IMG/VR virus record: IMGVR_UViG_2740892219_000010
Span: 1 to 64,000 of that record
DNA: 64,000 bases
Reading direction: 5' to 3' (one strand)
From: a virus
Taxonomy: Duplodnaviria > Heunggongvirae > Uroviricota > Caudoviricetes
The position numbers and the translations under genes are program-made. The notes under the pieces are model-generated. The model was not told the DNA's origin and ran no database searches. It worked only from the letters and a program-made list of their open reading frames with translations. Shown in pieces: positions 31,341 to 43,513 of the stretch (its first letter is position 1; each line of letters starts with the position of its first letter).

Positions 31341-32177
31341 TCAAAATGCTGAATTAGCAACGGATATAGCCGACTTTTTCCCCATTACCATCAATTTATC
31401 CAGTGTCATACTTCGCAGGTTGTCGCTGTGGATCACCAGATACCCTGCCCGCTCAGCGATCTCTTTGAAAGCGTCAAAAGTCATCAGATGTTCGCCTTTG
31501 GCAACATGGCGCATCCTGGTCACTTTTCCATTTTTGATAGTGGTGATAAAAGAAAAATCCGGAATGGTTGGCTGATTTTCATCGAGTAGCAGGCAGTGGA
31601 TGTATTCAATCGCCTCTAACATTTGCGTCTGTGACAGTTGTTCTATGTGAGAGACGGCGAAGCGTTGATGAATCATGGTGTAGGCATCGGGATACATCAT
31701 GCCTTTCTTACCGACCAGCATATTAACGGCATCACGTAAGGGAGTACGGTCATCGGTAGTTGTACTCCGCCTCTCTGGACGCTGGCTAAAATAACAATCT
31801 TCCAGCTTTTCGAAAACTTCCCAGGCCTGTTCTGTTTCCAGCATTTTGGCATGGCGAGCTGCGCCGCGTTCTGTCCAGAGAATGAGGGATCGGGTATGTT
31901 TAGCAACTGACTGACTATCTGTCAGTCTGTTTTTGAAGTCGCGTAATTCATTACCTTCCAGCTTAAAAAAATGCTTTCCTACGACAAATCTGGCGATGTT
32001 GCGCTTGAAGTTTTGCTGGATACCATTTACTTCCGTGCCATACAAACTGGCAAGCAATTCAGTAGTGATGACGGGAAGTTGGTTATGATGTAGCGGAGAA
32101 AGGGATTCCGCAGATATTTGGATTGTCATCGCAGTGGCCTCACTTAGTGTTTTTTTCATCACCACCAGCGACGCCAA
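31341..32177 (-). CDS. phage antirepressor (N-terminal Ant/ORF6N-type and C-terminal KilAC-type region)
   Basis: 278 aa; N-terminus MTIQISAESLSPLHHNQLPVITTELLASLYGTEVNGIQQNFKRNIARFVVGKHFFKLEG resembles antirepressor N-terminal domains as recalled; own upstream region with a minus-strand terminator at ~32290-32310. Confidence 0.65.
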   Translation of the reverse strand: MASLVVMKKTLSEATAMTIQISAESLSPLHHNQLPVITTELLASLYGTEVNGIQQNFKRNIARFVVGKHFFKLEGNELRDFKNRLTDSQSVAKHTRSLILWTERGAARHAKMLETEQAWEVFEKLEDCYFSQRPERRSTTTDDRTPLRDAVNMLVGKKGMMYPDAYTMIHQRFAVSHIEQLSQTQMLEAIEYIHCLLLDENQPTIPDFSFITTIKNGKVTRMRHVAKGEHLMTFDAFKEIAERAGYLVIHSDNLRSMTLDKLMVMGKKSAISVANSAF

Positions 32178-32401
32178 TCATCTGGTGGTGAACTGTGCAG
32201 GGTTGGCGTAACCGGCTAAGTGAACCCGGCGCTTCCACAGAAGCCCCCACACAGCCCACCATAATGCGAATGTGGCCGTGCCTAACACATAAAAAAACCG
32301 CTAACGCGGCTATGCGTCACTTAGATATCCGGGACGCCAATCCCGGCAACCGATTTTGCGGCTGCGCGGAAACTATAGCCCCGGACTTTTTCTAAGTCAA
32401 T

Positions 32402-33577: not shown

Positions 33578-33988
33578 TCACGCCCCTTTCTTTGCTATCG
33601 GAGTGATGGAACTCAGCAGCAGGCGGCAGCGACCAGGCGCGCCAATGCGCTGCCCGGTTATCTTGTCGTAAGTTTCATGCGGTGAGGCACACCAGGTTGT
33701 CGCTGTTTCGTGGAGTTTCACTTGCCGCTCACCATTTCTGCGAATCGCGATCCCGGTGTGCGTTTTGCCCTTACGTTTCACTGCTGGCGCTGCGGCTACG
33801 GATGCCTGACGGGCAGGCTTAGCAGGGGTTGAAAAATTGCCTGCTTTAGGTCTTGGCACAAAAACCGCGCGAGTGCGCGCACGTGGCCCGACGTTCATAT
33901 TCCACAAAATGACGTCGAGATAGTTTTTACCGTCGTCTATGTGTCCTTTGTCCGACGGGTACTCTAATTTGCCTGGAGTGGTGGTCAT
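33578..33988 (-). CDS. hypothetical protein
   Basis: 136-aa ORF downstream of the helicase gene. Confidence 0.4.
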   Translation of the reverse strand: MTTTPGKLEYPSDKGHIDDGKNYLDVILWNMNVGPRARTRAVFVPRPKAGNFSTPAKPARQASVAAAPAVKRKGKTHTGIAIRRNGERQVKLHETATTWCASPHETYDKITGQRIGAPGRCRLLLSSITPIAKKGA

Positions 33989-34026
33989 TGGTCTTTCCTC
34001 GGTTATTTCACGCTGGTCAGGCGTGG

Positions 34027-35442
34027 TTAAAATTCATTTGTGCGAGAATTATCGCTACGGGAATAACGTTTATTTTTTTCTGAGCGGTCGTTGGTACGGC
34101 GATAAACCTCCTCATCGCTGATATCAATAACTGAGCCATTTTTCATCAGGGCGTAGGCTGTTCCCGATGGTCCTTCGCGGTTCAGACGTAGCAACATTTC
34201 CATGAGATTTGGGTCGGCATTTTCGTTATAAACAGCATCACGATAGAGGCCAATCCAGACATCGCAATCTTGTTCGATCTGCCCGGTATCTTTACTGTCG
34301 CTCGGGTTAGGCCGCTTATCGGCACGTTCTTCAAGCTTTCGGTTGAGTTGCGTCAGCAGGACCACAACACAATCCAGCTCTTTTGCCAGGTTCTTCAAAC
34401 CGGTTGTGATATCGCCATACGCAATATCCCTACGCTCTGCCGATTCGGTCTTCATCAGCGTCAAATAGTCAATTGCCACCAGGCCAACCGAGCCACGCAT
34501 CCGTTTAACTTTTCGACATTCAGCGACAATATGCGCAAGGGTTACACCTGCCGTGCTGTCAATCATCATGTTGGATTCGGCAATCTCCCCCGCCTTTGCT
34601 ATTGCGAGACTCAATTCAGATTCATCGTTAGGGCCAAGATAAAAAATCTCCGAATTGACCTTTGCTTCCTGCGCAACCATGCGTTCAATGAGACTTCTGT
34701 CAGTCATTTCCAGGCTAAATACCAGCGTCGGCAAACGATGATTCAGAGCAAAATGCACCGCAATTTTATTAAACGCGGCTGTCTTGCCCATTTTTGGCCG
34801 GGCACCAATAACGACCAATGAACCTCTTAACGCCTGCTTTGGTGCCATTAAGCGATCAAGGCTTTCGATTCCGAGCGTTAGTCCGGCTGCATGTGCTGGA
34901 TCATTGAAACGGCGCTCAAGGTCATCTATCCAGTCATCGACGACTTCACTTGCCGGACGCAAACCGCCCTTATGCCCGGTACGGGAATGTTCGGCCACCT
35001 GCCCAATCACTTGCTGAACGGCGGTGATCCTGTCAGTAGCAGTCATATCTGCAGGCTGGATCATAATCTCCAGACAAGAATTCAACTTTTCCACGGCATA
35101 ACGAAGAATGGCTTTTTCACGTACAATTTTCGCGTAGTTGACCATTGAGGCCGGAATCGCCGCCTTACTCATTTCAGCCAGGTATGCGAATCCCCCCACG
35201 CGCTCATACAGCCCCTTCGATTCCATCAGTTCGGTCAGTGTTATCAGGTCAGTTGGTTTATCAGCTTGAAATAATCCTTTGATCTCCCGGTAGATAACCT
35301 GATGCGCATTGATATAAAACGTTTCCGGTTTCAGTAACGCAAATACCGCATTGGTTCTGTCGTGGTCGGTATTCAGCATCAGACAGCCCAGAACAGCCTG
35401 TTCTGCGTCAACGCTGTACAGTGCAATCGCGTTATTTATCAT
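34027..35442 (-). CDS. replicative DNA helicase (DnaB family, P22 gene 12-like)
   Basis: 471 aa with DnaB N-terminal region and Walker A (GARPKMGKTAF) plus RecA-like core motifs. Confidence 0.9.
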   Translation of the reverse strand: MINNAIALYSVDAEQAVLGCLMLNTDHDRTNAVFALLKPETFYINAHQVIYREIKGLFQADKPTDLITLTELMESKGLYERVGGFAYLAEMSKAAIPASMVNYAKIVREKAILRYAVEKLNSCLEIMIQPADMTATDRITAVQQVIGQVAEHSRTGHKGGLRPASEVVDDWIDDLERRFNDPAHAAGLTLGIESLDRLMAPKQALRGSLVVIGARPKMGKTAAFNKIAVHFALNHRLPTLVFSLEMTDRSLIERMVAQEAKVNSEIFYLGPNDESELSLAIAKAGEIAESNMMIDSTAGVTLAHIVAECRKVKRMRGSVGLVAIDYLTLMKTESAERRDIAYGDITTGLKNLAKELDCVVVLLTQLNRKLEERADKRPNPSDSKDTGQIEQDCDVWIGLYRDAVYNENADPNLMEMLLRLNREGPSGTAYALMKNGSVIDISDEEVYRRTNDRSEKNKRYSRSDNSRTNEF

Positions 35443-36187
35443 TTGCGCGTTCTTCCTTGACCGAAACGTAGCAGCGTTCGGTAATCAGATAATCAAGATT
35501 TTTACGCCGCCAGAATCCTCCCCTGCCATTTGGCCTGTCCTCCAGCATCCAGCGACAATTGCCACCGATAAATTCCAGATAGGCCCGCCAACGGGACTCA
35601 TTGAAATTGAATTTTTTCCAGAAAGTGCGAAGGTGTTTTTTTCTGCCGTCAGTGAGGATTTTCACTGGTGGCATCTCTGGCAAAATCTCGTGATAGGTAT
35701 CGAGTATCACCTGATAATTTATTCTCTGGTCGGCAGGTTGTTGGGTGTCGGCGTCAACCGATTCACCATCAGTAATAATCTCTGTAGTATTCTCTGTAAG
35801 AATGTTTGTTGGTTTTCCACGTACAGGCCTGGTGGTTTTCCCCTCACCTGTATGTGGTTTTTCCGCATCCTTGTATGCGGACGTAAGTAGCTGGCACAAC
35901 ACATCATTATCGATTTTGTAGTACAGCCTGGCAGGCAAGCCCTGTTTACGTTCCAGCAAGATGCCGAGACCACGTAGTTTTTTGCGCGCGCCCTCCTGCT
36001 CGTATCGTGAAAGCCCTGTTTCCTCTTCCCACTCATCCTGGGTTTTATATACCCAGCCGTCGTCAGTTGTTCTGTTTGTCCAGTACGTCAACTGCGACAG
36101 AAACAATGCGGCAGTCACGCCCATTTCAAGACGGATAAAACTTCTCTGGAAGGCTATGGGTCTATCAAGTAACGGGAGGATGTTCAT
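35432..36187 (-). CDS. replication initiation protein (lambda O / P22 gene 18-like)
   Basis: 251 aa immediately upstream of the helicase with 11-nt overlap. Confidence 0.6.
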   Translation of the reverse strand: MNILPLLDRPIAFQRSFIRLEMGVTAALFLSQLTYWTNRTTDDGWVYKTQDEWEEETGLSRYEQEGARKKLRGLGILLERKQGLPARLYYKIDNDVLCQLLTSAYKDAEKPHTGEGKTTRPVRGKPTNILTENTTEIITDGESVDADTQQPADQRINYQVILDTYHEILPEMPPVKILTDGRKKHLRTFWKKFNFNESRWRAYLEFIGGNCRWMLEDRPNGRGGFWRRKNLDYLITERCYVSVKEERANDK

Positions 36188-36408
36188 ATGCCCAAAGCCT
36201 CTGAGAGAACGCGACAGCCAGCCTCATAGGCAGCGCCAGAGAGATTTTGCTCACGCAGTTTCGCTTTTTCTTCTTCGTACTTTTCCCATACAGAACGTGC
36301 AGCTGCGACGCGGCCATCGAATATGGGGCGGATCTCTGCAACATGTGCCGGGCGTCCATTCAGGTGCCAGCCGTTACGCCAGGTAATGCGGTCAATATGT
36401 CTTAACAT
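36184..36408 (-). CDS. hypothetical protein
   Basis: 74-aa ORF coupled to the replication gene. Confidence 0.35.
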   Translation of the reverse strand: MLRHIDRITWRNGWHLNGRPAHVAEIRPIFDGRVAAARSVWEKYEEEKAKLREQNLSGAAYEAGCRVLSEALGI

Positions 36409-36447
36409 CGGTCTTTCCTCGGTATAAGTTAAACGCTGGTCAGGCGC

Positions 36448-36924
36448 TCATGCATGGTGGTCTTGCGCAGTGCGTATCACTGCTCCTCGCGTCGCTACCA
36501 GCGCCGCTATTGCTTCGTCAATTTCCTGAATAGTTAACTCTGGCGCGAAGTGGAGATGTACAGCGTTAATCGCTTCCACCCCTTCTTTTGCCGCCAGCGT
36601 TGCCAGCAAAACGGGATCGCCCGGCGACTCCAGACGTGCCCGCCGTTCTGCGGGTAGCACGGCTTTCATCACACTGGCCAGCACCTGAGTTTTTCGGCGC
36701 GCCGCCGTTGTCTCGCCACGTAACCAGCGAAAGATTTTCTGCCGATTGTTGTTGATGGCTCTCCAGTCCACGTTGCCGTCCGCGTCCTCAAATTCATGTA
36801 GTCTCAACTCATCATTGCGTCCCTGACTGAACCAGGCCCGGCAGATTTCAATCGTGACGAGTTCCTGCCCTGCCCTTGCCGCCCAGGTCAAAATCTCTTT
36901 TTGTAATTCCTCTTGGTTTTCCAT
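36448..36924 (-). CDS. early regulatory protein in the cII position (YdaT-like?)
   Basis: 158-aa ORF directly downstream of the cro-like gene; assignment positional. Confidence 0.35.
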   Translation of the reverse strand: MENQEELQKEILTWAARAGQELVTIEICRAWFSQGRNDELRLHEFEDADGNVDWRAINNNRQKIFRWLRGETTAARRKTQVLASVMKAVLPAERRARLESPGDPVLLATLAAKEGVEAINAVHLHFAPELTIQEIDEAIAALVATRGAVIRTAQDHHA

Positions 36925-36982: not shown

Positions 36983-37213
36983 TTAAGCTGCTTCCGTTTT
37001 AGGCAAGCTGTCATCTGGGTTTGGGTAAAGATCCGGTCTAAGATCATGAGGGGTCACGCGCCATTCAAGAGCTTCAGATGTGCGCAAAACCTCTTCACCG
37101 GGAACCCGTCCTTTGAACCAGAGGCTTACCGTTTGTGGTTTTTTCCCTAATCGCCGCCCTAACTCGGATTGACTCATTACGGAAAGAATTTTGTCTTGCA
37201 GTTGTTTATCCAT
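36983..37213 (-). CDS. Cro-like HTH regulator
   Basis: 76 aa from ATG 37213 with RBS AAGGAG; HTH segment (SQSELGRRLGKKPQTVSLWFKGR); divergent from the repressor gene. Confidence 0.55.
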   Translation of the reverse strand: MDKQLQDKILSVMSQSELGRRLGKKPQTVSLWFKGRVPGEEVLRTSEALEWRVTPHDLRPDLYPNPDDSLPKTEAA

Positions 37214-37311
37214 ATGGACTCCTTGTGTCCGCGTCATCATTACAAACAATAACTGTAATTACAAATTATATTTGCAATGCTCCCTACAATTAAACCTTGT
37301 ATCCTTACGGT
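37214..37311. promoter_or_regulatory. oR-like divergent promoter/operator region
   Basis: Repeated half-sites ATTACAAAC, CTGTAATT, TTACAAATT, TTTGCAAT; minus-strand TATAAT (plus 37265-37270) suitable for a pR driving cro. Confidence 0.5.
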
Positions 37312-37725
37312 ATGAACACAAAAACGAAAAACATGGCTTTTGCTAGCCGACTACAACGGATTCTAAAAGACTTAGGCTGGTCTCAATCTGAGTTAGCTCG
37401 CCATATTGGGGTTACGGCTCAATCAGTTCAGGCATGGTGTAATGGGGTAACTCCAAGAAAAGATAAATTAGACAAGCTAGCAAAAGTGACCGGATACCCT
37501 GTTCATTTTTTCTTCATGAATGAAGGGGAATATTTGGATGAATCCACACTACACCCGGGTAATTACAATCAAGAACTAACCCCGCAAGAACAGGCTCTAC
37601 TGCAACTATTCAGAGGACTGCCTGAGAGCGAAAAAAATAAATTAATCAATGAGCTAAAAGAAAAAAGAGAGCACTTCGATCTACTGCTAAAAGAACTACT
37701 TGAAGCCAAAAACCAGACAAAATAG
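37312..37725 (+). CDS. CI-like repressor (XRE-family HTH, no S24 peptidase domain)
   Basis: ~138 aa; HTH segment (SQSELARHIGVTAQSVQAWCNG); no Ser/Lys autopeptidase domain; start uncertain (37297, 37312 or 37333) with no SD, so possibly leaderless. Confidence 0.7.
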   Translation: MNTKTKNMAFASRLQRILKDLGWSQSELARHIGVTAQSVQAWCNGVTPRKDKLDKLAKVTGYPVHFFFMNEGEYLDESTLHPGNYNQELTPQEQALLQLFRGLPESEKNKLINELKEKREHFDLLLKELLEAKNQTK

Positions 37726-37844
37726 TTCAGTTCAAATTTCCAGGCCAGCCGCTGCTGGCATGCAACTTTCCCCTAACACAAAAACACCTTTACACAGTGA
37801 ATATTTTTTTTGCCCCTCACTACAAATTATTTTTTAAAAACACA

Positions 37845-37873
37845 TTGACCATTACAAATACAAATTGTAAAGT
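37845..37873 (+). promoter_or_regulatory. pL-like promoter with overlapping operator palindrome
   Basis: TTGACC (37845-37850), 17 nt, TAAAGT (37868-37873); overlapped by TTACAAATACAAATTGTAA, the same TTACAA half-site as in the oR region. Confidence 0.5.
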
Positions 37874-38628
37874 CACTTTCATCAACAACGCTTACCCAGC
37901 GGCAGTTGTTCAGAAACAAGTTCTGACAGCCGGAAAGACGGCACCAAATTTTGCGCGTCGGCGCCAACACGGTGACAGAGGGAAAGACTTCACCGGCATA
38001 TGGCACATGTGTCGAAGCGGTCTGGATGGAAGCGGAGCCTTAACGCGTTGTCTCCATAGCAGGTAGCCGGAATGTGCAAGCCACAGCCAGGTATGAGCGA
38101 TTGATTCACCATCAAGGCGATACGGTGTGACCACCAGGGAAGAGTCCTGGCTACAACACGAGAGCGCACTTCATCGACTCAACTTTGAGCTTTGTCGTTA
38201 AATTTTGAAATGGCGGAGTGCGCTCCCGGTTGTGGTGAACAGGTGTTTAACGGGAACTCCCTGCCCGTTACCCGGTTCGATTCCGGGCGCCCATCATCAA
38301 TTTGCTGTGTTTAGTCTTTGCCCAGTCCGCACGATGGGCCATTTTTTCACACAGCCAGGTTTTATCGCTGTGCCTGAGTCCCCAACAGGAGAGGCCAAAC
38401 CCGCAGCGTGACACCAGGGAAAGACCGGAGGAAGTACCACGCCTGACCAGCGTTGACCATGAGCCTGACCAGCTCAAAACAGGAAAGACCAGCCCGGGCC
38501 TGACCAGCCCTGTACGGTCGTAATGGAAACATAACGACGCCGGAAACGTAACCGGCACCCTTTAGATAGCAAAAGACCCGCACAAGGCGGGCCAGTTACC
38601 CCGAACGGCGACCAAACCATTCGGATTT

Positions 38629-38652
38629 ATCACAAGTGACCAAACTTGTGAT
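38629..38652. promoter_or_regulatory. perfect inverted repeat ATCACAAGT-N6-ACTTGTGAT
   Basis: 9-bp arms, 6-bp spacer, upstream of the first early-left gene and overlapping the first copy of the ATGAGGAAAGACCA motif. Confidence 0.5.
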
Positions 38653-38736
38653 GAGGAAAGACCAACGACACTGACGCTATGGAAGCTGATCAATATTCGC
38701 TGATCGGCTCTGAGTATACATTACCAAGGAGTCGCT

Positions 38737-39057
38737 ATGGAAGCGCGCACCATCCCAGTAACACTCTTTATTCATTATGCAACTTCAACTTTCAGCCACG
38801 AAAAGCTGCTTGTTGCGACTGTTGATATGTCAAAAAATTTTCCAGACAGGTACATCCTTCTGGAAAGCCGCGAAATTGAAATTACCGTTAACCAGCCCGA
38901 GCCAATCGACATCATCGGTTTACAGGTCGAGCAACTGCGTGAACAAAAACAGAAAACAGTCGCCGACGCCCAACAGCGTATTGCTGCTATCGATGACAAA
39001 ATCCAGCAGTTACTTTGCATCGAATACACGCCAGATACCGATGAGCTCCCCTACTAA
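38737..39057 (+). CDS. hypothetical early-left protein
   Basis: 106 aa, RBS AAGGAG; first gene of the plus-strand early-left operon. Confidence 0.45.
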   Translation: MEARTIPVTLFIHYATSTFSHEKLLVATVDMSKNFPDRYILLESREIEITVNQPEPIDIIGLQVEQLREQKQKTVADAQQRIAAIDDKIQQLLCIEYTPDTDELPY

Positions 39058-39087
39058 AAACCACTGACCTGTAATGAGGAAAGACCA

Positions 39088-41307
39088 ATGACCATTTTTA
39101 ACGGCTTGTTAGAAGCGAAAAAAGGCGCGCTCAAAAACGGCGCGATCCCGGCGCTGGCCATCGCCATCGCCGCCCCTAACAAAAAAGTTGCCGAGAACAT
39201 CATCATCGGCAAATTGTGGGAAGCCTACCCTGACCACGGCGACAACTATTTCAAACCTAAAATCTGGGAAGATGCCCCGGGCCAACCGCGCCCAGGCGTC
39301 GGTGAGTTTGATGAGACGTTTGCCACAGAACACAGTTTTGATGGCGAAAAATGGGTAGTTAACACTCCTGTTGATTCAGATTGCAGTTCAGCAGATATCT
39401 CACAGGTTAGCGACCTGATGAAACTGCCGGCTCGTGAACGATTCGCCGCCGTTCTGCTGTTCAGCCACGACGCCAACGAAGTCGACAGTGAATTGCTTGC
39501 GCAGACGCGTGAATACCTGGAGATGCTCGATAACAGTGATACTGACAGTGAGGATGAGGTTGACGCGTTTAACCGCATCGTTCTTGATGCCATGGTGGCG
39601 TGTAAGCCCATCGAGTACATGCATATTGCTGGATTGAATAATCTGGTACATGCAATTTTGGCAAGTTGCGATACCCAGGAACAAAACCCGACCAGTTGGA
39701 CTATCTCCAAATTTATAAAAAAATGGGTAGAGAATCCCGGTAAACGCGATGAAATGCTGCCGGAGATAAAACCAGAAACAGCATCCGCACGTCCTTACAA
39801 ACAGACTCACGCCACTCTGGATCGTGAAATTGCCTGCGCCCTGTTACCTGTTGCCCCGGAAAAAATCACCCCCAGCATCCTGAAAGCGGCAGACGAAATA
39901 ATCAGTCAGGACAGGGAAGATTTTAAACGCTGGTCAATGGCCTTGCGCACAACGGATCAGATCCTTGCCTATGACCGCGCATCAGTATTCGGTGTTATTC
40001 AGAGCGCCCCCGCAAAAGACACGTACCACTTCCCGCAATCCCTGCGCAATCACATCGATAACTGGCTGCAAGCTAACGGGCAGCGTGATGCAAATGCTGT
40101 TGAAGAGAAGCCAAAGGAAGCAGCACCAAAGGATGATGTAAAAGTCATCAACCACGGCGGCGGACGATTCTCAATTGATGGGATGATGTCAGAAACACCC
40201 TCAAATCAGGGCGAAAAAAGCGAAACAGCAAATGCTGGAGAACGTAGTTTGCAGCAGTTGCGTGAGCAGTTTGTCACGCCTCGCCATGTGTATGACGTAC
40301 CTGAAAATAACGCCGTATCACAGAGGGAACCTGCAGCTATTACTACCCCGGCAGAAGAGACTCCTCCACAAGAACAACTTAGCGAGCAGGTAAAGGATCT
40401 GGTGCAGAACGTTGACGCGCTGGTTGAGCGGATCCATACCGAAGAGCACAAGCGGCAGAATGCAATCTCAGCTATCGAAACGGAGTTAAAGGACTCCGGC
40501 GACACGGATAACCTGGCATTGTGGAAGAACGTATTCAAAACCGATGAGCGCTTCACCAGTGCTTTCTCTCAGAACGGCGGCGGCACATCCATCAACGGCA
40601 CTTATATAGCGATGAAAGCGACTCGCGAATTTGGGCCGTTTGGTATTGGCTGGGGTGTAGAGGTGCTGGAGGAGCGCTTTGATAAAGGCGCACCGATAGT
40701 TCGTAAAAAACAGGTTGGTGAAAAAATAGAATGGGATCTGATTCAAGACGGTGTTGGCGGGTACCTATGTGAAATGCACCACACCATGAAAGTGAGAGTC
40801 TGGTACATATTGAATGGGGTACGCGGTGAGTCCGAGGCTTACGGATGCACACCTTATATCTACGACACTAAATACGGACCAACAAGCGACGGCGAAGCGC
40901 CGAAGAAATCCTGGACGGATGCTGTTAAGAAAGCGCTATCCCCTCTCGGATTCAGCGCCGATATTTTCATGGGCCTGTACGACAATCCGGAATACCGCCA
41001 GAGGAATAAAGCTGAGTTTGATATCAAGAATGCCAGCGAGAATGCGGAAGATGCTACCCGTCTGCGTAAGGAACTGGATGAGGAGCTTATCAACGTTGCC
41101 AATACGCTGGCCGCCGCGGTAACCACCAACGAAGTAAACAAGGTATTTGGCCTCATCGCCCGCGAAGTGGATGTACACAGGAAAGCAGCGGAAGCCAAAG
41201 GCGATAAAGAATATTCATCGTATCTGGGATCGCGCCTGCGCCGTATCACCGACATTAAAACTGAACGCCTCGCCGCCCTTACCGCTGCACAGGAGCAAAC
41301 CGCATGA
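39088..41307 (+). CDS. large early protein, possible recombination function (C-terminal region SSAP-like?)
   Basis: 739 aa; start preceded by the conserved ATGAGGAAAGACCA motif; C-terminal region carries a motif reminiscent of Erf/Rad52-type annealing proteins (KKALSPLGFSADIFMGLYD); followed by a Gp157-like gene. Confidence 0.55.
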   Translation: MTIFNGLLEAKKGALKNGAIPALAIAIAAPNKKVAENIIIGKLWEAYPDHGDNYFKPKIWEDAPGQPRPGVGEFDETFATEHSFDGEKWVVNTPVDSDCSSADISQVSDLMKLPARERFAAVLLFSHDANEVDSELLAQTREYLEMLDNSDTDSEDEVDAFNRIVLDAMVACKPIEYMHIAGLNNLVHAILASCDTQEQNPTSWTISKFIKKWVENPGKRDEMLPEIKPETASARPYKQTHATLDREIACALLPVAPEKITPSILKAADEIISQDREDFKRWSMALRTTDQILAYDRASVFGVIQSAPAKDTYHFPQSLRNHIDNWLQANGQRDANAVEEKPKEAAPKDDVKVINHGGGRFSIDGMMSETPSNQGEKSETANAGERSLQQLREQFVTPRHVYDVPENNAVSQREPAAITTPAEETPPQEQLSEQVKDLVQNVDALVERIHTEEHKRQNAISAIETELKDSGDTDNLALWKNVFKTDERFTSAFSQNGGGTSINGTYIAMKATREFGPFGIGWGVEVLEERFDKGAPIVRKKQVGEKIEWDLIQDGVGGYLCEMHHTMKVRVWYILNGVRGESEAYGCTPYIYDTKYGPTSDGEAPKKSWTDAVKKALSPLGFSADIFMGLYDNPEYRQRNKAEFDIKNASENAEDATRLRKELDEELINVANTLAAAVTTNEVNKVFGLIAREVDVHRKAAEAKGDKEYSSYLGSRLRRITDIKTERLAALTAAQEQTA

Positions 41308-41873
41308 GCACTGCTATCGCTATTGCAAAAGAATATGCCAGTCTGATTGACCTGTTAGAAACCTCCGACGAACTGACGCCAGAGATGATCGCCGACACGC
41401 TTGAAGGTATGGAAGGAGAACTGGGAGACAAACTGGACGCCATGATGGTCATCTGCCGCAATTTACAGGGCAATGCCAATACCTGCGCTGAAGAAATGTC
41501 TCGCCTGGCTACCCGTAAGACGTCCTTTGAAGGCAAGGAAAAAGCAATTCGAAAGCATATGCTCGCCTGCCTGCAAGCTGCTGGCCTGGATAAACTGAAA
41601 ACCGCAAAAAACACATTTACTGATGCACAGGGGGCTATCCGGGTAATTATTGATAACAAAGATAAGATCCCGGACGAGTATGAGGGTGTGTCACTTGTTG
41701 ATGTAGAAACGGTTATTACACCAAACAAGCGAGCCATTAAAGAAGTGATTGAATCTGCGGAGGCGGTTGCCGCCGAAATACTGGCGCGTGGAGAAACACC
41801 ACCAGCCGAGTTATTAAACCCGGTACCAGGCGCACATCTGGAACGCGGCGAACGGTCACTGAGGATACGCTAA
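41304..41873 (+). CDS. Gp157-like protein (Sipho_Gp157 family, recombination-module associated)
   Basis: 189 aa, overlaps the upstream stop (ATGA); overall resemblance to Gp157-family proteins as recalled. Confidence 0.45.
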   Translation: MSTAIAIAKEYASLIDLLETSDELTPEMIADTLEGMEGELGDKLDAMMVICRNLQGNANTCAEEMSRLATRKTSFEGKEKAIRKHMLACLQAAGLDKLKTAKNTFTDAQGAIRVIIDNKDKIPDEYEGVSLVDVETVITPNKRAIKEVIESAEAVAAEILARGETPPAELLNPVPGAHLERGERSLRIR

Positions 41874-42055
41874 TGCTTAAACTCACATTAAAGCGTGGTG
41901 ACGCGGTTCACCTGGTACTTGCCGATGGTACCAATGGCATTATTGAAGCACGGAGCCGCTGCGAACTTGGGCTACACCTGCCAGAAAACATTAAGGTCAC
42001 TCGGGAGAAATCGGCATTCCCCCCACCAGAACTGATTACGCCTAATCAGAAATAA
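41873..42055 (+). CDS. small protein with CsrA-like pattern
   Basis: 60 aa; MLKLTLKRGDAVHLVL...IKVTREK loosely matches the CsrA pattern MLILTRRVGETLMI...VSVHREE. Confidence 0.3.
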   Translation: MLKLTLKRGDAVHLVLADGTNGIIEARSRCELGLHLPENIKVTREKSAFPPPELITPNQK

Positions 42056-42264
42056 AAACTCACCATCGCTAGCATTGCGATTCACCAGTAACCGGAGGAT
42101 CACAATGCTGCGATGGCAACCGGGAGCAACTCTGCTCTCCGCATTTGATATCAAAATTGGCCGACTGTCGGCCAGCGTCAGGAAACAGACTTTGACCGAG
42201 TCTGATATTGCCCGTGCCTGCCATGTGGCAGATGACGCAATAAGCTACATAATGAGGAAAGACC

Positions 42265-42528
42265 ATGAAAAGCGATCACGACATAATCACCAGAGAAGAA
42301 ATGGTCGAGCTGACGGGAAGCCCACTTAAATCAAAGCAATGTGAGGCTCTTCGCCGGGCTGGAATTTTCTTCATGGAAAGGGCTGACGGACACCCAAAAA
42401 CAACCTGGGGCCATTTCATGAACCCAATAAAATTTCGCAATTTACAGGAGGTGACGACGCGAAAAGATGATGAACCTGATTTTGGAGCAATATTTAATGG
42501 CCGGAAAGAGAAAGAACCCAGCAGATAA
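42265..42528 (+). CDS. excisionase-like protein (positional)
   Basis: 87 aa immediately upstream of and overlapping int; start preceded by ATGAGGAAAGACC. Confidence 0.4.
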   Translation: MKSDHDIITREEMVELTGSPLKSKQCEALRRAGIFFMERADGHPKTTWGHFMNPIKFRNLQEVTTRKDDEPDFGAIFNGRKEKEPSR

Positions 42529-43513
42529 CTGGATGCCGCCTCGTGTTTACCAGGGCAAAGCGGCCTACGAATTCAGGAATAAAGATAACAAAGCGATACG
42601 CCTGTGCGCATTGGATGCACCACGATCAGCCGTATGGCTGGCATATGAAAAAGCGGTCGGTGACGAAAAAGAAAGAAATACTTTTCAGGCGCTCGCGGAA
42701 CAATTCATGACCTCCCCTGATTTTATGGATTTGGCAGTCGAAACCAGGAAAGACTACACAAAATATTCCGGAAAAGTTCTGCCTGTCTTCGGGAAGATCG
42801 ACCCGGATAAAATCAAACCTGAACATATTCGGCGCTATATGGATCAACGCGGTTTATCAAGCCGAACTCAGGCAAACAGGGAAAAAAGCTTTATGTCCCG
42901 GGTATTCCGTTGGGGTTATGAACGAGGTTATGTTCAGAGGAATCCTTGTCAGGGAGTTAAACAGTTTAAAGAGACAGCTCGCGAACGTTATATTACGGAT
43001 GAAGAATATCAGGCCGTTTATGAAGTGTCTCCTGACGTCGTTCGCGTGGCAATGGAGATTGCCTACTTATGCGTGGCCAGACAGAGTGATGTACTTTCAT
43101 TGCAGAAAGACCAACTGTTCGATTCCGGGATCTACATTCGTCAGGGAAAAACCGGCGTTAAGCAAATCAAAGCCTGGTCGCCTCGTCTGCAGAAAGCGAT
43201 AGCTCTGGCTCGTTCTCTGCCATTAAAAACGGGAATCAGTAGTCTGTTTGTGATTCATCAAACTACCGGTGGCAAGTACACCCGTGATGGTTTTAACTCT
43301 CGTTGGCGTGATGTCAAAGCTGCGGCACAGGAAAAATATCCTCATCTGCAAATAGACTTCACATTTCATGATCTGAAAGCAAAAGGTATCTCTGATCTGG
43401 AAGGCAGCCTGGAAGAGAAGCAAGCAATTTCCGGGCATAAGAACCCACGACAGACAGCAGCATATGACCGAAAAGTTAAAGTAGTGCCCGTAGTTGGTGG
43501 CCAGAGAAAATGA
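42467..43513 (+). CDS. int: tyrosine integrase (lambda Int family)
   Basis: 348 aa; C-terminal catalytic region (FHDLKAKGISDLEG...GHKNPRQTAAYDRK); transcribed toward the tRNA-Leu core. Confidence 0.85.
   Translation: MMNLILEQYLMAGKRKNPADNWMPPRVYQGKAAYEFRNKDNKAIRLCALDAPRSAVWLAYEKAVGDEKERNTFQALAEQFMTSPDFMDLAVETRKDYTKYSGKVLPVFGKIDPDKIKPEHIRRYMDQRGLSSRTQANREKSFMSRVFRWGYERGYVQRNPCQGVKQFKETARERYITDEEYQAVYEVSPDVVRVAMEIAYLCVARQSDVLSLQKDQLFDSGIYIRQGKTGVKQIKAWSPRLQKAIALARSLPLKTGISSLFVIHQTTGGKYTRDGFNSRWRDVKAAAQEKYPHLQIDFTFHDLKAKGISDLEGSLEEKQAISGHKNPRQTAAYDRKVKVVPVVGGQRK

What the first reader, a model, noticed from the sequence alone, without database searches (positions are those of the whole stretch)
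38629..42265. Exact 14-mer ATGAGGAAAGACCA repeated three times at translation starts of the early-left operon
The motif occurs at 38651-38664, 39074-39087 (immediately before ATG 39088 of the 739-aa gene) and 42252-42265 (ending in the ATG of the xis-like gene), with the extended 16-mer TAATGAGGAAAGACCA shared by two copies. Three exact copies in 64 kb is not expected by chance. Each carries a GAGGA Shine-Dalgarno, and the first is fused to a perfect palindrome ATCACAAGT-N6-ACTTGTGAT. Such conserved start-region sequences could act as recombination linkers for modular gene exchange or as a common translational control element.
Basis: seen in the sequence. Interest (0 to 1): 0.45.

Follow-up and report, generated by a model that had tools for sequence, protein, structure and literature searches.

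The report
Prophage small RNA and its targets
The repeated 14-mer marks the ribosome-binding sites of several early prophage genes, and one copy is the mirror image of a conserved, unannotated small RNA that can pair with all of them, so the repeats look like an RNA-controlled gene set rather than chance or a plain ribosome site.

Summary
ATGAGGAAAGACCA occurs exactly at 38651, 39074 and 42252. Two more copies of the core GAGGAAAGACC lie on the minus strand, at the starts of two early-right genes (33988, 36408).

The window holds a Rac-like E. coli prophage, and about 200 related prophage loci carry the same pattern. In them the core occurs 5-7 times per locus and is almost always co-oriented with transcription.

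Copy 1 is not a gene start. It lies inside a predicted minus-strand small RNA of about 140 nt (about 38709 to 38570). That RNA has a conserved -10 box, covarying hairpins with UUGGUC loops, strand-specific G.U pairs and an intrinsic terminator. Its exposed segment UUGGUCUUUCCUC is complementary to the motif.

Related prophages fall into at least four well-populated classes (GAGG-AAA/CAA/CAT/TAT-GACC). In 209 loci the small RNA's class matches the class of the other copies in the same locus (794 of 795 copies).

The best explanation is a base-pairing RNA that masks the ribosome-binding sites of the recE-like gene, xis and two right-operon genes. This resembles P1 C4 RNA, but it is an unrelated family that is absent from Rfam.

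Expression and the direction of regulation are inferred, not shown. Mosaic joints do coincide with the motif, but that is probably secondary.

The parts
38570..38709 (-). Predicted small RNA gene of about 140 nt. The 5' end is predicted to within a few nt. The RNA comprises a 5' hairpin, the seed UUGGUCUUUCCUC, two hairpins with UUGGUC loops and a terminator.
   Evidence: The fold has z = -6.4. Model R1 scores 111 bits at 38566-38710(-). Covariation and G.U strand asymmetry support the structure.
38713..38718 (-). -10 box TATACT of the small RNA promoter. The -35 is weak and overlaps the start codon of the 106-aa gene.
   Evidence: TATACT or TATAAT is kept in all 66 unique AAA-class regions. 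Nearly all of the 180 unique regions across four classes carry a hexamer matching TATAAT at 5 or 6 of 6 positions, mostly 21-35 nt upstream of the seed. The tool's strict two-hexamer scan did not call it.
38651..38664 (+). Finder's copy 1. It is the complement of the small RNA seed (seed = 38665..38653 on the minus strand) and is also a perfectly complementary site in the PL leader.
   Evidence: In most relatives it is followed by ACG, not a start codon.
38629..38652 (-). Hairpin H5' of the small RNA (the finder's palindrome). It has a 9-bp stem and the loop UUGGUC.
   Evidence: 8 of its 9 pairs show changes on both sides, and 98.4% of cells are paired.
38601..38624 (-). Hairpin H4' of the small RNA, with UUGGUC in its loop (UUUGGU in the predicted fold).
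   Evidence: It is 97.9% paired as minus-strand RNA but only 70% as plus-strand RNA. There are 147 G.U pairs on the minus strand.
38571..38593 (-). Intrinsic terminator of the small RNA: GGCCCGC-CUUGU-GCGGGUC followed by UUUU.
   Evidence: Terminator scan. A T-tract lies 86-94 nt after the seed start in three of the four classes and mostly 90-100 nt in the CAA class.
39074..39087 (+). Copy 2. Target site on the ribosome-binding site of the 739-aa RecE-like exonuclease gene (start 39088).
   Evidence: The seed duplex is -27.8 kcal/mol, the best of 339 ORF starts. The gene matches phrog_2489.
42252..42265 (+). Copy 3. Target site on the ribosome-binding site of the excisionase-like gene (start 42265).
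   Evidence: The seed duplex is -23.3 kcal/mol, rank 4 of 339. The gene matches DUF4224 and phrog_1266.
33989..34000 (-). Target site GAGGAAAGACCA before the ATG at 33988 of a 136-aa gene downstream of the DnaB-like helicase.
   Evidence: The seed duplex is -26.3 kcal/mol, rank 2.
36409..36420 (-). Target site GAGGAAAGACCg before the ATG at 36408 of a 74-aa gene downstream of the cII-like gene.
   Evidence: The seed duplex is -25.5 kcal/mol, rank 3.
38418..38510 (+). GACCA-rich tract of the PL leader. It holds GGGAAAGACCG, cAGGAAAGACCA (38480) and the small hairpins CGC-CUGACCA-GCG (38440-38453) and GGGC-CUGACCA-GCCC (38496-38510). These are possible extra binding or decoy sites.
   Evidence: Seed duplexes here are -21.9 and -19.1 kcal/mol. 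Any role is inferred only.
34010..34023 (-). Small hairpin CGC-CUGACCA-GCG, 9 nt upstream of the 34000 target. Its loop is complementary to the UGGUC of the small RNA loops.
   Evidence: The exact 14-mer occurs three times. Sequence. A kissing interaction is inferred only.
36433..36446 (-). The same small hairpin, 12 nt upstream of the 36420 target.

Best explanation
The motif belongs to an RNA-RNA control circuit of a Rac-like E. coli prophage.

A small RNA of about 140 nt here (about 110-125 nt in most relatives) is transcribed from the minus strand, convergent with the early-left (PL) operon. Its promoter lies just upstream of the 106-aa gene, and it ends at an intrinsic terminator.

Its 5' part carries UUGGUCUUUCCUC. 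In the predicted folds UUUCCUC is single-stranded and UUGGUC is held in a weak 5' hairpin. Two downstream hairpins each display UUGGUC in the loop.

The segment is complementary to GAGGAAAGACCAA. That sequence covers the Shine-Dalgarno sequence and spacer of four independently initiated early genes: recE-like, xis, and two genes of the rightward operon.

Pairing would block 30S binding and repress translation. The RNA is also fully antisense to the PL leader. I infer that it keeps recombination, excision and other early functions silent in the lysogen or in a superinfecting relative of the same class. I also infer that strong PL transcription, whose leader is rich in the same motif, overrides or titrates it.

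What is shown here:
- the sequence anatomy
- conservation of the parts
- a strand-specific structure
- co-variation between the seed and the target copies

What is inferred:
- that the RNA is expressed
- the sign of regulation
- any involvement of Hfq
- the physiological role
For: 1. Orientation. GAGGAAAGACC occurs 5-7 times per locus in 116 related loci. 1013 of 1023 occurrences of GGAAAGAC follow the direction of transcription, and the orientation flips at the divergent early promoters, not at the replication gene.

2. Minus-strand RNA.
- A -10 hexamer matching TATAAT at 5 or 6 of 6 positions is present in nearly all of 180 unique regions.
- A terminator T-tract lies about 86-100 nt past the seed start in nearly all regions.
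- Fold z-scores are -6.4 and -6.9.
- The two hairpins are 98.1% paired, 12 of 18 pairs change on both sides, and 0 of 500 shuffles reach the observed covariation score.
- There are 172 G.U pairs when the sequence is read as minus-strand RNA and only 6 when read as plus-strand RNA. H4' is 97.9% paired on the minus strand against 70% on the plus strand.

3. Targets. The 17-nt seed forms its four best duplexes with the starts of the recE-like, 33988, 36408 and xis genes, out of 339 ORF starts in the window. Energies are -27.8 to -23.3 kcal/mol, the next best is -18.1 and the median is -7.4.

4. Co-variation. Other prophages carry GAGG-CAA/CAT/TAT-GACC. The small RNA's class against the class of the other copies in the same locus gives a diagonal table: 419, 243, 43, 87 and 2 on the diagonal and 1 off it, across 209 loci. 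The variable triplet lies in the part of the seed predicted to be single-stranded, NNNCCUC.

5. One family. A covariance model built from the AAA class alone finds one full-length hit per locus in most CAA loci and in all CAT and TAT loci searched (E 1e-16 to 1e-5). It finds one hit in the window and none in three control loci.
Against: - No expression data were available. The -35 is weak (TTCCAT or TCCATA) and the tool's strict promoter scan did not call the promoter.
- The diagonal table proves concerted change of all copies in a genome. It does not prove that RNA pairing drives that change, and loci within a class are related by descent, so there are only about four independent events.
- No co-variation was seen outside the 11-13 nt core.
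- In the AAA, CAA and CAT folds the UUGGUC part of the seed is paired in a 5' hairpin, so only 7 nt are free.
- The many extra GACCA and GGAAAGAC sites and CUGACCA hairpins in the plus-strand leader have no demonstrated role.
Confidence: 0.7

Rival explanations
1. The motif and the GACCA-loop hairpins are binding sites for a sequence-specific RNA-binding protein, phage or host encoded. That protein would control translation of several early mRNAs in the manner of T4 RegA. The minus-strand features would then be incidental.
For: The motif sits on ribosome-binding sites. It is oriented with transcription and is conserved beyond what a Shine-Dalgarno sequence needs. GACCA recurs in loops and single strands of the plus-strand leader, for example CUGACCA hairpins directly upstream of two targets. 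All copies in a genome would also change together if a protein's specificity changed.
Against: No candidate RNA-binding protein was found among the conserved early genes. The 106-aa product is acidic and has no arginine-rich motif. The H4 and H5 hairpins pair well only as minus-strand RNA. A -10 box and a terminator bracket them on that strand in all classes. No protein is needed to explain the complementarity.
Confidence: 0.1
2. The copies are linker (boundary) sequences. They would be short shared stretches at gene borders that promote homologous exchange of gene cassettes between related phages, perhaps through the phage's own RecE-like system.
For: Among related loci, pairs that are similar on one flank and unrelated on the other are enriched at the motif. 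Counts out of 600 sampled pairs are 51, 72 and 66 at offset 0, against 0-22 at offsets of +-75 or +-150 nt, for three of four sites. Extra genes occur flanked by two copies, for example L003 at 9673 and 9989.
Against: Gene boundaries are where mosaic joints are expected with or without a linker, and no motif-free boundary control was possible. A linker does not predict a promoter, a terminator, a strand-specific fold, or a copy that is not at a gene border. Linkers should be shared between exchanging phages, yet the motif has split into mutually exclusive classes.
Confidence: 0.08
3. The hairpins and motif are nut-like sites (a boxB hairpin plus a linear element) on the early transcripts. They would load an N-like antiterminator.
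For: The sites occur in both early operons downstream of the promoters. The CUGACCA loops recall my memory of phage 21 and P22 boxB loops, which I did not check against a source. Terminators exist in the PL leader at 38325-38347.
Against: There is no boxA-like CGCTCTT(T)A. No arginine-rich N-like ORF is present, and the small leader ORFs are not conserved. The main hairpins fold on the opposite strand. With 5-7 sites per genome placed directly on ribosome-binding sites, the layout is unlike that of nut sites.
Confidence: 0.04
4. The copies are just a strong ribosome-binding site, copied by chance or by descent, with no further function.
For: GAGG lies 7-9 nt before the start codon in four copies.
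Against: The 8 nt after GAGG are invariant across hosts whose RecE-like proteins are only 45-53% identical. Copy 1 has no start codon. All copies switch together between classes.
Confidence: 0.02

Closest known systems
C4 antisense RNA of phages P1 and P7 (immI region; Rfam RF01695 with its a1/b1 targets RF03163)
   Same: It is a phage small RNA whose exposed segments pair with short repeated target sequences. One of those targets covers a ribosome-binding site. From my own knowledge, P1 and P7 have different specificities through matched changes in the RNA and its targets, which is the same logic as the seed classes seen here.
   Different: There is no sequence or structure relationship. The window carries a genuine C4/isrK module elsewhere, at 32181-32378, and no Rfam model hits 38566-38710. 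C4 is cut out of the same transcript that holds its targets. This RNA has its own convergent promoter and 4-6 targets spread over both early operons.
CI RNA of satellite phage P4 (seqB pairing with seqA and seqC)
   Same: It gives RNA-based control of early expression through short repeated complementary sequences in the early leader. It is an immunity-like function (from my own knowledge).
   Different: P4 CI RNA is processed from the leader itself and acts by premature transcription termination. Here the targets are mainly ribosome-binding sites and the RNA is made from the opposite strand.
Sar RNA of P22 and OOP RNA of lambda
   Same: They are short phage antisense RNAs, transcribed convergently with an early gene, that lower its expression.
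   Different: They act only on the transcript they overlap. This RNA also has perfect 11-13 nt matches at four distant genes.
RegA translational repressor of T4
   Same: One factor recognises the start regions of many early mRNAs.
   Different: RegA is a protein. Here the complementary partner is encoded as RNA.
Boundary or linker sequences of lambdoid phage mosaics (modular evolution theory)
   Same: They are short conserved sequences at gene borders that coincide with mosaic joints.
   Different: Here the sequence has an evident RNA partner, a fixed orientation and class-specific variants.
Prophage small RNAs acting on ribosome-binding sites, such as HnrS (PMC13502914)
   Same: It is a prophage-encoded small RNA that pairs with a ribosome-binding site to block translation.
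   Different: HnrS is 66 nt and targets the host gene hha. This RNA's evident targets are the phage's own early genes.

Membership tests
Trans-acting base-pairing small RNA that occludes ribosome-binding sites | Its own promoter | tested here: inconclusive
   A -10 box (TATACT, TATAAT, TAAAAT or TAGAAT) is conserved, mostly 21-35 nt upstream of the seed, in nearly all of 180 unique regions. The -35 is weak, the strict scan did not call it, and there are no expression data.
Trans-acting base-pairing small RNA that occludes ribosome-binding sites | Rho-independent terminator at the 3' end | tested here: met
   Minus-strand stem 38593..38575 followed by UUUU. The T-tract is conserved about 86-100 nt after the seed start.
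Trans-acting base-pairing small RNA that occludes ribosome-binding sites | Conserved secondary structure on the transcribed strand | tested here: met
   98.1% of cells are paired, 12 of 18 pairs change on both sides and 0 of 500 shuffles reach the observed score. G.U pairs number 172 on the minus strand against 6 on the plus strand.
Trans-acting base-pairing small RNA that occludes ribosome-binding sites | Accessible seed complementary to the start regions of target mRNAs | tested here: met
   The seed's four best duplexes among 339 ORF starts are at motif-bearing genes. NNNCCUC is single-stranded in the predicted folds of four classes.
Trans-acting base-pairing small RNA that occludes ribosome-binding sites | Matched changes in seed and targets | tested here: met
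   The class table is diagonal over 209 loci, with about four independent class switches.
Trans-acting base-pairing small RNA that occludes ribosome-binding sites | Transcript detected and regulation demonstrated, with or without Hfq dependence | not testable with these tools
   No transcriptome or reporter data were available.
C4 antisense RNA family (Rfam RF01695) | Match to the family covariance model | tested here: not met
   The only C4 hit is at 32181-32266(-). Nothing hits 38566-38710 at the gathering score or at E up to 5.
Lambdoid nut site with N antitermination | boxA consensus next to a boxB hairpin on the early transcript | tested here: not met
   No boxA-like sequence is present in the alignments. 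The main hairpins pair properly only on the strand opposite to the early transcript.
Lambdoid nut site with N antitermination | N-like protein with an arginine-rich motif encoded nearby | tested here: not met
   No such family hit was found among the ORFs of either early operon. The candidate leader ORF is not conserved.
Shine-Dalgarno ribosome-binding site | Purine-rich match to the anti-SD 5-10 nt before a start codon | tested here: met
   This holds for the copies at 39074, 42252, 34000 and 36420. It does not hold for copy 1 at 38651 or for the leader copy at 38480.
Mosaic boundary (linker) sequence | Coincides with homology breakpoints between related phages | tested here: inconclusive
   Breakpoints are enriched at the motif compared with +-75 or +-150 nt at three of four sites. 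There was no control at gene borders that lack the motif.
Mimic of 23S rRNA around A2058 (GGAAAGACC, positions 2056-2064) | The identity to the rRNA sequence is conserved among relatives | tested here: not met
   The 9-nt identity (noticed through) holds only in the AAA class. The CAA, CAT and TAT classes break it.

The most novel reading that the evidence does not exclude
The small RNA is a second, RNA-based immunity determinant of Rac-like prophages. It comes in at least four mutually orthogonal specificity classes, AAA, CAA, CAT and TAT. A resident prophage would silence the early genes (recombination, excision and right-operon functions) of itself and of any incoming relative of the same class. 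The motif-rich PL leader would act as a sponge that removes the RNA on induction. The classes would then be natural sets of orthogonal RNA and ribosome-site pairs, produced by an arms race between related prophages.
Probability: 0.3. Interest if true: 0.78.

Novelty: new variant of a known kind. Interest (0 to 1): 0.62.

Why it matters
- **Prevalence.** This early-left region, which includes the small RNA, is present in 487 of 5426 complete E. coli genomes, including ST131 strains. Relatives occur in Raoultella, Enterobacter, Rosenbergiella and Serratia. Yet the 1-kb stretch that holds the RNA is unannotated in RefSeq, absent from Rfam, and not found by sequence in the searchable literature.
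- **A new control layer.** If the RNA works as inferred, it adds a post-transcriptional layer to lysogeny control of a common prophage type, acting on xis and a RecE-like recombination gene.
- **Comparative value.** It gives a clear example of a small RNA and a multi-gene target set changing together.
- **Practical value.** It provides ready-made orthogonal seed and ribosome-site pairs.
- **Annotation.** It explains why a ribosome-binding region can be conserved to the nucleotide across genera.

Tried and rejected
- **Nut or boxB reading.** I pursued this first because of the GACCA loops. I dropped it after finding the strand asymmetry of wobble pairs, no boxA and no N-like ORF.
- **Small basic leader ORF.** An ORF starting at the leader copy (MG(M)TSP...RRKK) is not conserved in frame or in start codon, and its changes follow stem covariation rather than codons.
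- **23S rRNA A2058-region identity.** This came up through a literature string search. It holds in only one class, so I treat it as coincidence.
- **Host RNA-binding factors.** CsrA (GGA in loops), Hfq (ARN repeats) and 16S complementarity were considered by inspection of the sequence. None fits.
- **RprA-like RNA as the partner.** The RprA-like RNA upstream could pair with the motif only through 6-8 bp with a bulge, so it is not the partner.
- **Duplex search with the full-length RNA.** This gave long, meaningless duplexes. It was replaced by a 17-nt seed scan.
- **Co-variation outside the core.** None is convincing.
- **Searches that found little.**
  - Megablast against isolated phages found nothing.
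  - A distant search found only BUCT708/709 over most of the region.
  - The CAA and TAT class RNAs have no match in E. coli genomes. In isolated phages the CAA class RNA has no match and the TAT class RNA matches only short partial stretches of 17-35% of its length.
- **Literature.** Searches on Rac antitermination and on prophage small RNAs gave only unrelated systems: mEp021 Gp17, HnrS and lambda PreS.
- **Terminator helix.** It could not be scored for covariation because MAFFT put the two loop lengths out of register.

Full report
**Observation**

The exact 14-mer ATGAGGAAAGACCA is at 38651, 39074 and 42252 on the + strand. With up to two mismatches there are 8 matches, against 0.41 expected from shuffles. 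Only three 14-mers in the 64-kb window occur three times.

- Copy 2 ends one base before the ATG of the 739-aa ORF (39088..41307).
- Copy 3 ends in the ATG of the 87-aa ORF (42265..42528).
- Copy 1 overlaps by two bases the palindrome ATCACAAGT-GACCAA-ACTTGTGAT at 38629-38652.

- The core GAGGAAAGACC occurs twice more on the minus strand, directly before the ATGs of ORFs 33578..33988 and 36184..36408.
- A second 14-mer, CGCCTGACCAGCGT, lies 9-12 nt upstream of those two copies and once in the + strand leader at 38440.

**Context**

The window is E. coli chromosome carrying a Rac-like lambdoid prophage. Its early region is laid out as follows:

| Strand | Coordinates | Feature |
|---|---|---|
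| - | 36983-37249 | YdaS/Cro-like |
| - | 36448-36924 | YdaT/CII-like |
| - | 35432-36187 | O-like replication protein |
| - | 34027-35442 | DnaB-like helicase |
| + | 37297-37725 | HTH repressor |
| + | about 37726-38736 | roughly 1 kb with no convincing ORF |
| + | 38737-39057 | 106-aa gene |
| + | 39088-41307 | RecE-like exonuclease |
| + | 41304-41873 | Gp157-family protein |
| + | 41873-42055, 42105-42329 | two small ORFs |
| + | 42265-42528 | DUF4224 excisionase-like gene |
| + | 42467-43513 | integrase |

A PL-like promoter is at 37845-37873. Every motif copy is therefore on the sense strand of its operon.

**Relatives**

Loci came from two sources. One was relatives of the RecE-like protein at 45-95% identity, in E. 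whittamii, Raoultella, Rosenbergiella and Enterobacter, together with phage BUCT709. The other was 109 viral contigs recovered with the start region of the 106-aa gene as a pattern.

- GAGGAAAGACC occurs 5-7 times per locus at the same relative positions, while the flanks diverge.
- Of 1023 occurrences of GGAAAGAC, 1013 follow the direction of transcription. The orientation flips at the divergent early promoters, not at the replication gene, so the signal is read in RNA or during transcription.
- In four position classes the motif is followed by ATG within 0-4 nt. The leader copies, including the equivalent of copy 1, mostly are not.

**The leader and the minus-strand RNA**

An alignment of 88 distinct leaders shows a fixed order of elements: an RprA-like element with a terminator, a motif copy, small hairpins, a GC hairpin preceded by an A-tract, two hairpins with GACCAA loops and covarying stems, copy 1, and then a block containing an invariant TATA.

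Read on the minus strand, the parts become clear. The A-tract hairpin is a standard intrinsic terminator. The TATA block is TATACT or TATAAT. The sequence between them folds well, with z = -6.4 here and -6.9 in Raoultella.

The decisive test is strand-specific. A G.U pair on one strand is a C.A mismatch on the other. Across 58 distinct sequences, the two hairpins have 172 G.U pairs as minus-strand RNA and 6 as plus-strand RNA. H4' is 97.9% paired on the minus strand against 70% on the plus strand.

For these two helices 98.1% of cells pair and 12 of 18 pairs show changes on both sides. None of 500 shuffles reaches the observed covariation score, and slid controls pair at 48% or less.

Copy 1 is therefore the template of UUGGUCUUUCCUC in a minus-strand RNA. 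The finder's palindrome is one of that RNA's hairpins, with loop UUGGUC.

**Targets**

A 17-nt seed was scanned against the start regions of all 339 ORFs of at least 50 aa in the window:

| Rank | Gene start | Duplex energy (kcal/mol) |
|---|---|---|
| 1 | 39088, recE-like | -27.8 |
| 2 | 33988 | -26.3 |
| 3 | 36408 | -25.5 |
| 4 | 42265, xis | -23.3 |
| 5 | next best | -18.1 |
| median | all starts | -7.4 |

This ranking follows from the shared motif. What it adds is that, within this prophage, the RNA's complementarity is confined to ribosome-binding sites of early genes plus the PL leader.

The genes that lack the motif are mostly translationally coupled to an upstream gene. Examples are the starts at 41304 and 41873, which overlap the preceding stop codons.

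**Co-variation**

A Serratia prophage (L007) has the same layout, but its motif is GAGGCATGACCA. It occurs at five sites: in the leader, at a gene start, at xis, after the cII-like gene on the other strand, and next to a UUGGUC-loop hairpin and terminator on the antisense strand.

Pattern scans for UUGGUC-NNN-CCUC followed by a UUGGUC loop recovered four well-populated classes, AAA, CAA, CAT and TAT, plus rare ACT cases.

Over 209 loci I tabulated the class of the small-RNA copy against the class of every other copy in the same locus:

| Class of the small-RNA copy | Other copies of the same class | Other copies of a different class |
|---|---|---|
| AAA | 419 | 0 |
| CAA | 243 | 1 |
| CAT | 43 | 0 |
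| TAT | 87 | 0 |
| ACT | 2 | 0 |

Further points:

- 816 of 825 copies have the expected orientation.
- The variable triplet lies between the Shine-Dalgarno sequence and the start codon, where translation tolerates change. It also lies in the stretch NNNCCUC that is single-stranded in the predicted folds of all four classes.
- All classes keep a good -10 hexamer, mostly 21-35 nt upstream of the seed, and a T-tract about 86-100 nt downstream.
- A covariance model built from AAA-class sequences alone finds one full-length match per locus in most CAA loci and in all CAT and TAT loci searched (E 1e-16 to 1e-5). It finds one match in the window at 38566-38710(-) and none in three control loci.

**Caveats**

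- Members of a class are related by descent, so the table reflects about four independent switches.
- By itself the table shows concerted change, not its cause.
- There are no expression data.
- The -35 is weak.
- The model's E-values are rough.

**Mechanism**

The best-supported reading is a convergent small RNA that is antisense to the PL leader. Through an 11-13 nt match it would act in trans on the ribosome-binding sites of the recE-like gene, xis and two rightward genes, and block initiation.

The CUGACCA hairpin loops upstream of the two rightward targets are complementary to the UGGUC of the RNA's loops. A two-site contact like that of P1 C4 RNA is therefore possible, but it is only inferred.

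The PL leader carries several further GGAAAGAC and UGACCA sites (38418-38510, and 37932 and 37979). It could capture or titrate the RNA. This is speculation.

The split into exclusive classes suggests selection for specificity, as in heteroimmune phages.

**Rivals**

- **Protein operator.** It remains possible, but no candidate protein was found, and it does not explain the strand-specific fold or the promoter and terminator.
- **Linker idea.** It has one real support: one-sided homology breaks are enriched at the motif relative to +-75 or +-150 nt at three of four sites. Gene borders are expected to carry such joints anyway, and exclusive classes argue against a shared linker.
- **Nut-like reading.** It fails on boxA, on an N-like protein and on strand.
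- **Plain ribosome site.** It fails on conservation and on copy 1.

**Comparison and novelty**

The circuit works like P1/P7 C4 RNA and P4 CI RNA, which are short repeated complementary sequences giving RNA-based control of early genes. It also resembles Sar and OOP in being convergent.

It is not a member of any of those families. Rfam has no hit at this locus at the gathering score or at E up to 5, while the true C4/isrK module of this prophage is found elsewhere. The motif and seed strings do not occur in any phage-related paper in the searchable literature. Recent prophage small-RNA papers describe other molecules.

I rate it a new variant of a known kind. This early-left region, which contains the RNA, is present in 487 of 5426 complete E. 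coli genomes, and the stretch that holds the RNA is unannotated there.

Noticed in passing
window 38239-38349 (+), core 38296-38347; also L007 8845-8890 and most related loci: An RprA-like element sits in the PL leader. TTGCTGTGT(G/T)TAGTCTTTGCC followed by a terminator hairpin and a T-run matches the 3' half of host RprA. The Rfam RprA score is 37.4 bits, below the gathering score of 70. The element is conserved across the AAA class and in Serratia, so the phage may copy a host small RNA's seed.
   Followed up: partly
window 37994-38165 (+): An unannotated stretch of about 170 nt in the PL leader is 72-77% identical to unannotated regions of epsilon15-like phages (SPN1S, Tyrion), Klebsiella phages and P1-like phages (D6, SJ46). 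There is no Rfam hit. It may be a shared non-coding element.
   Followed up: partly
window 38255-38295 (+): A tRNA-like T-arm (CCCGG-TTCGATT-CCGGG) and a partial acceptor lie between the two elements above. ARAGORN calls no tRNA anywhere in the window.
   Followed up: no
window 32181-32378 (-): A full P1-type module of isrK, C4 antisense RNA and its a1/b1 targets lies directly upstream of an anti-repressor gene at 31341-32177. This prophage therefore appears to carry two separate RNA-based control modules.
   Followed up: no
window 26977, 27900, 30019 (+) and 27859, 28758, 29984 (+): Two other short sequences are each repeated three times: TGTGCCAGGAGCGG and TCGCTCACAGCGG. They occur partly as pairs 35-41 nt apart in the AT-rich accessory region. 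They are unexplained.
   Followed up: no
window 42105-42329 (+): A 74-aa ORF (phrog_27062, E 1e-32) reads through copy 3 in frame and overlaps the first 65 nt of the excisionase-like gene in another frame. It is unclear which of the overlapping reading frames is real.
   Followed up: no
window 38733-38748: The inverted repeat CGCT-ATGGA-AGCG spans the start codon of the 106-aa gene and the -35 region of the small RNA promoter. It is exact in 109 viral contigs, although it was the search pattern itself. It could be an operator or a hairpin that couples the two genes.
   Followed up: no
window 38653-38663 and the other AAA-class copies: GGAAAGACC is identical to E. coli 23S rRNA 2056-2064, the A2058 macrolide, Erm and TLR13 site. 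The other seed classes break the identity, so it is probably coincidence.
   Followed up: yes
E. coli records H1-H8: In several E. coli genomes the homologous early-left region is interrupted by IS150 or ISEc52 insertions.
   Followed up: no
window 38573-38600: The small RNA's terminator hairpin also lies on the PL transcript, where it is followed by only a weak U-run. It could act as a leaky bidirectional terminator for PL.
   Followed up: no
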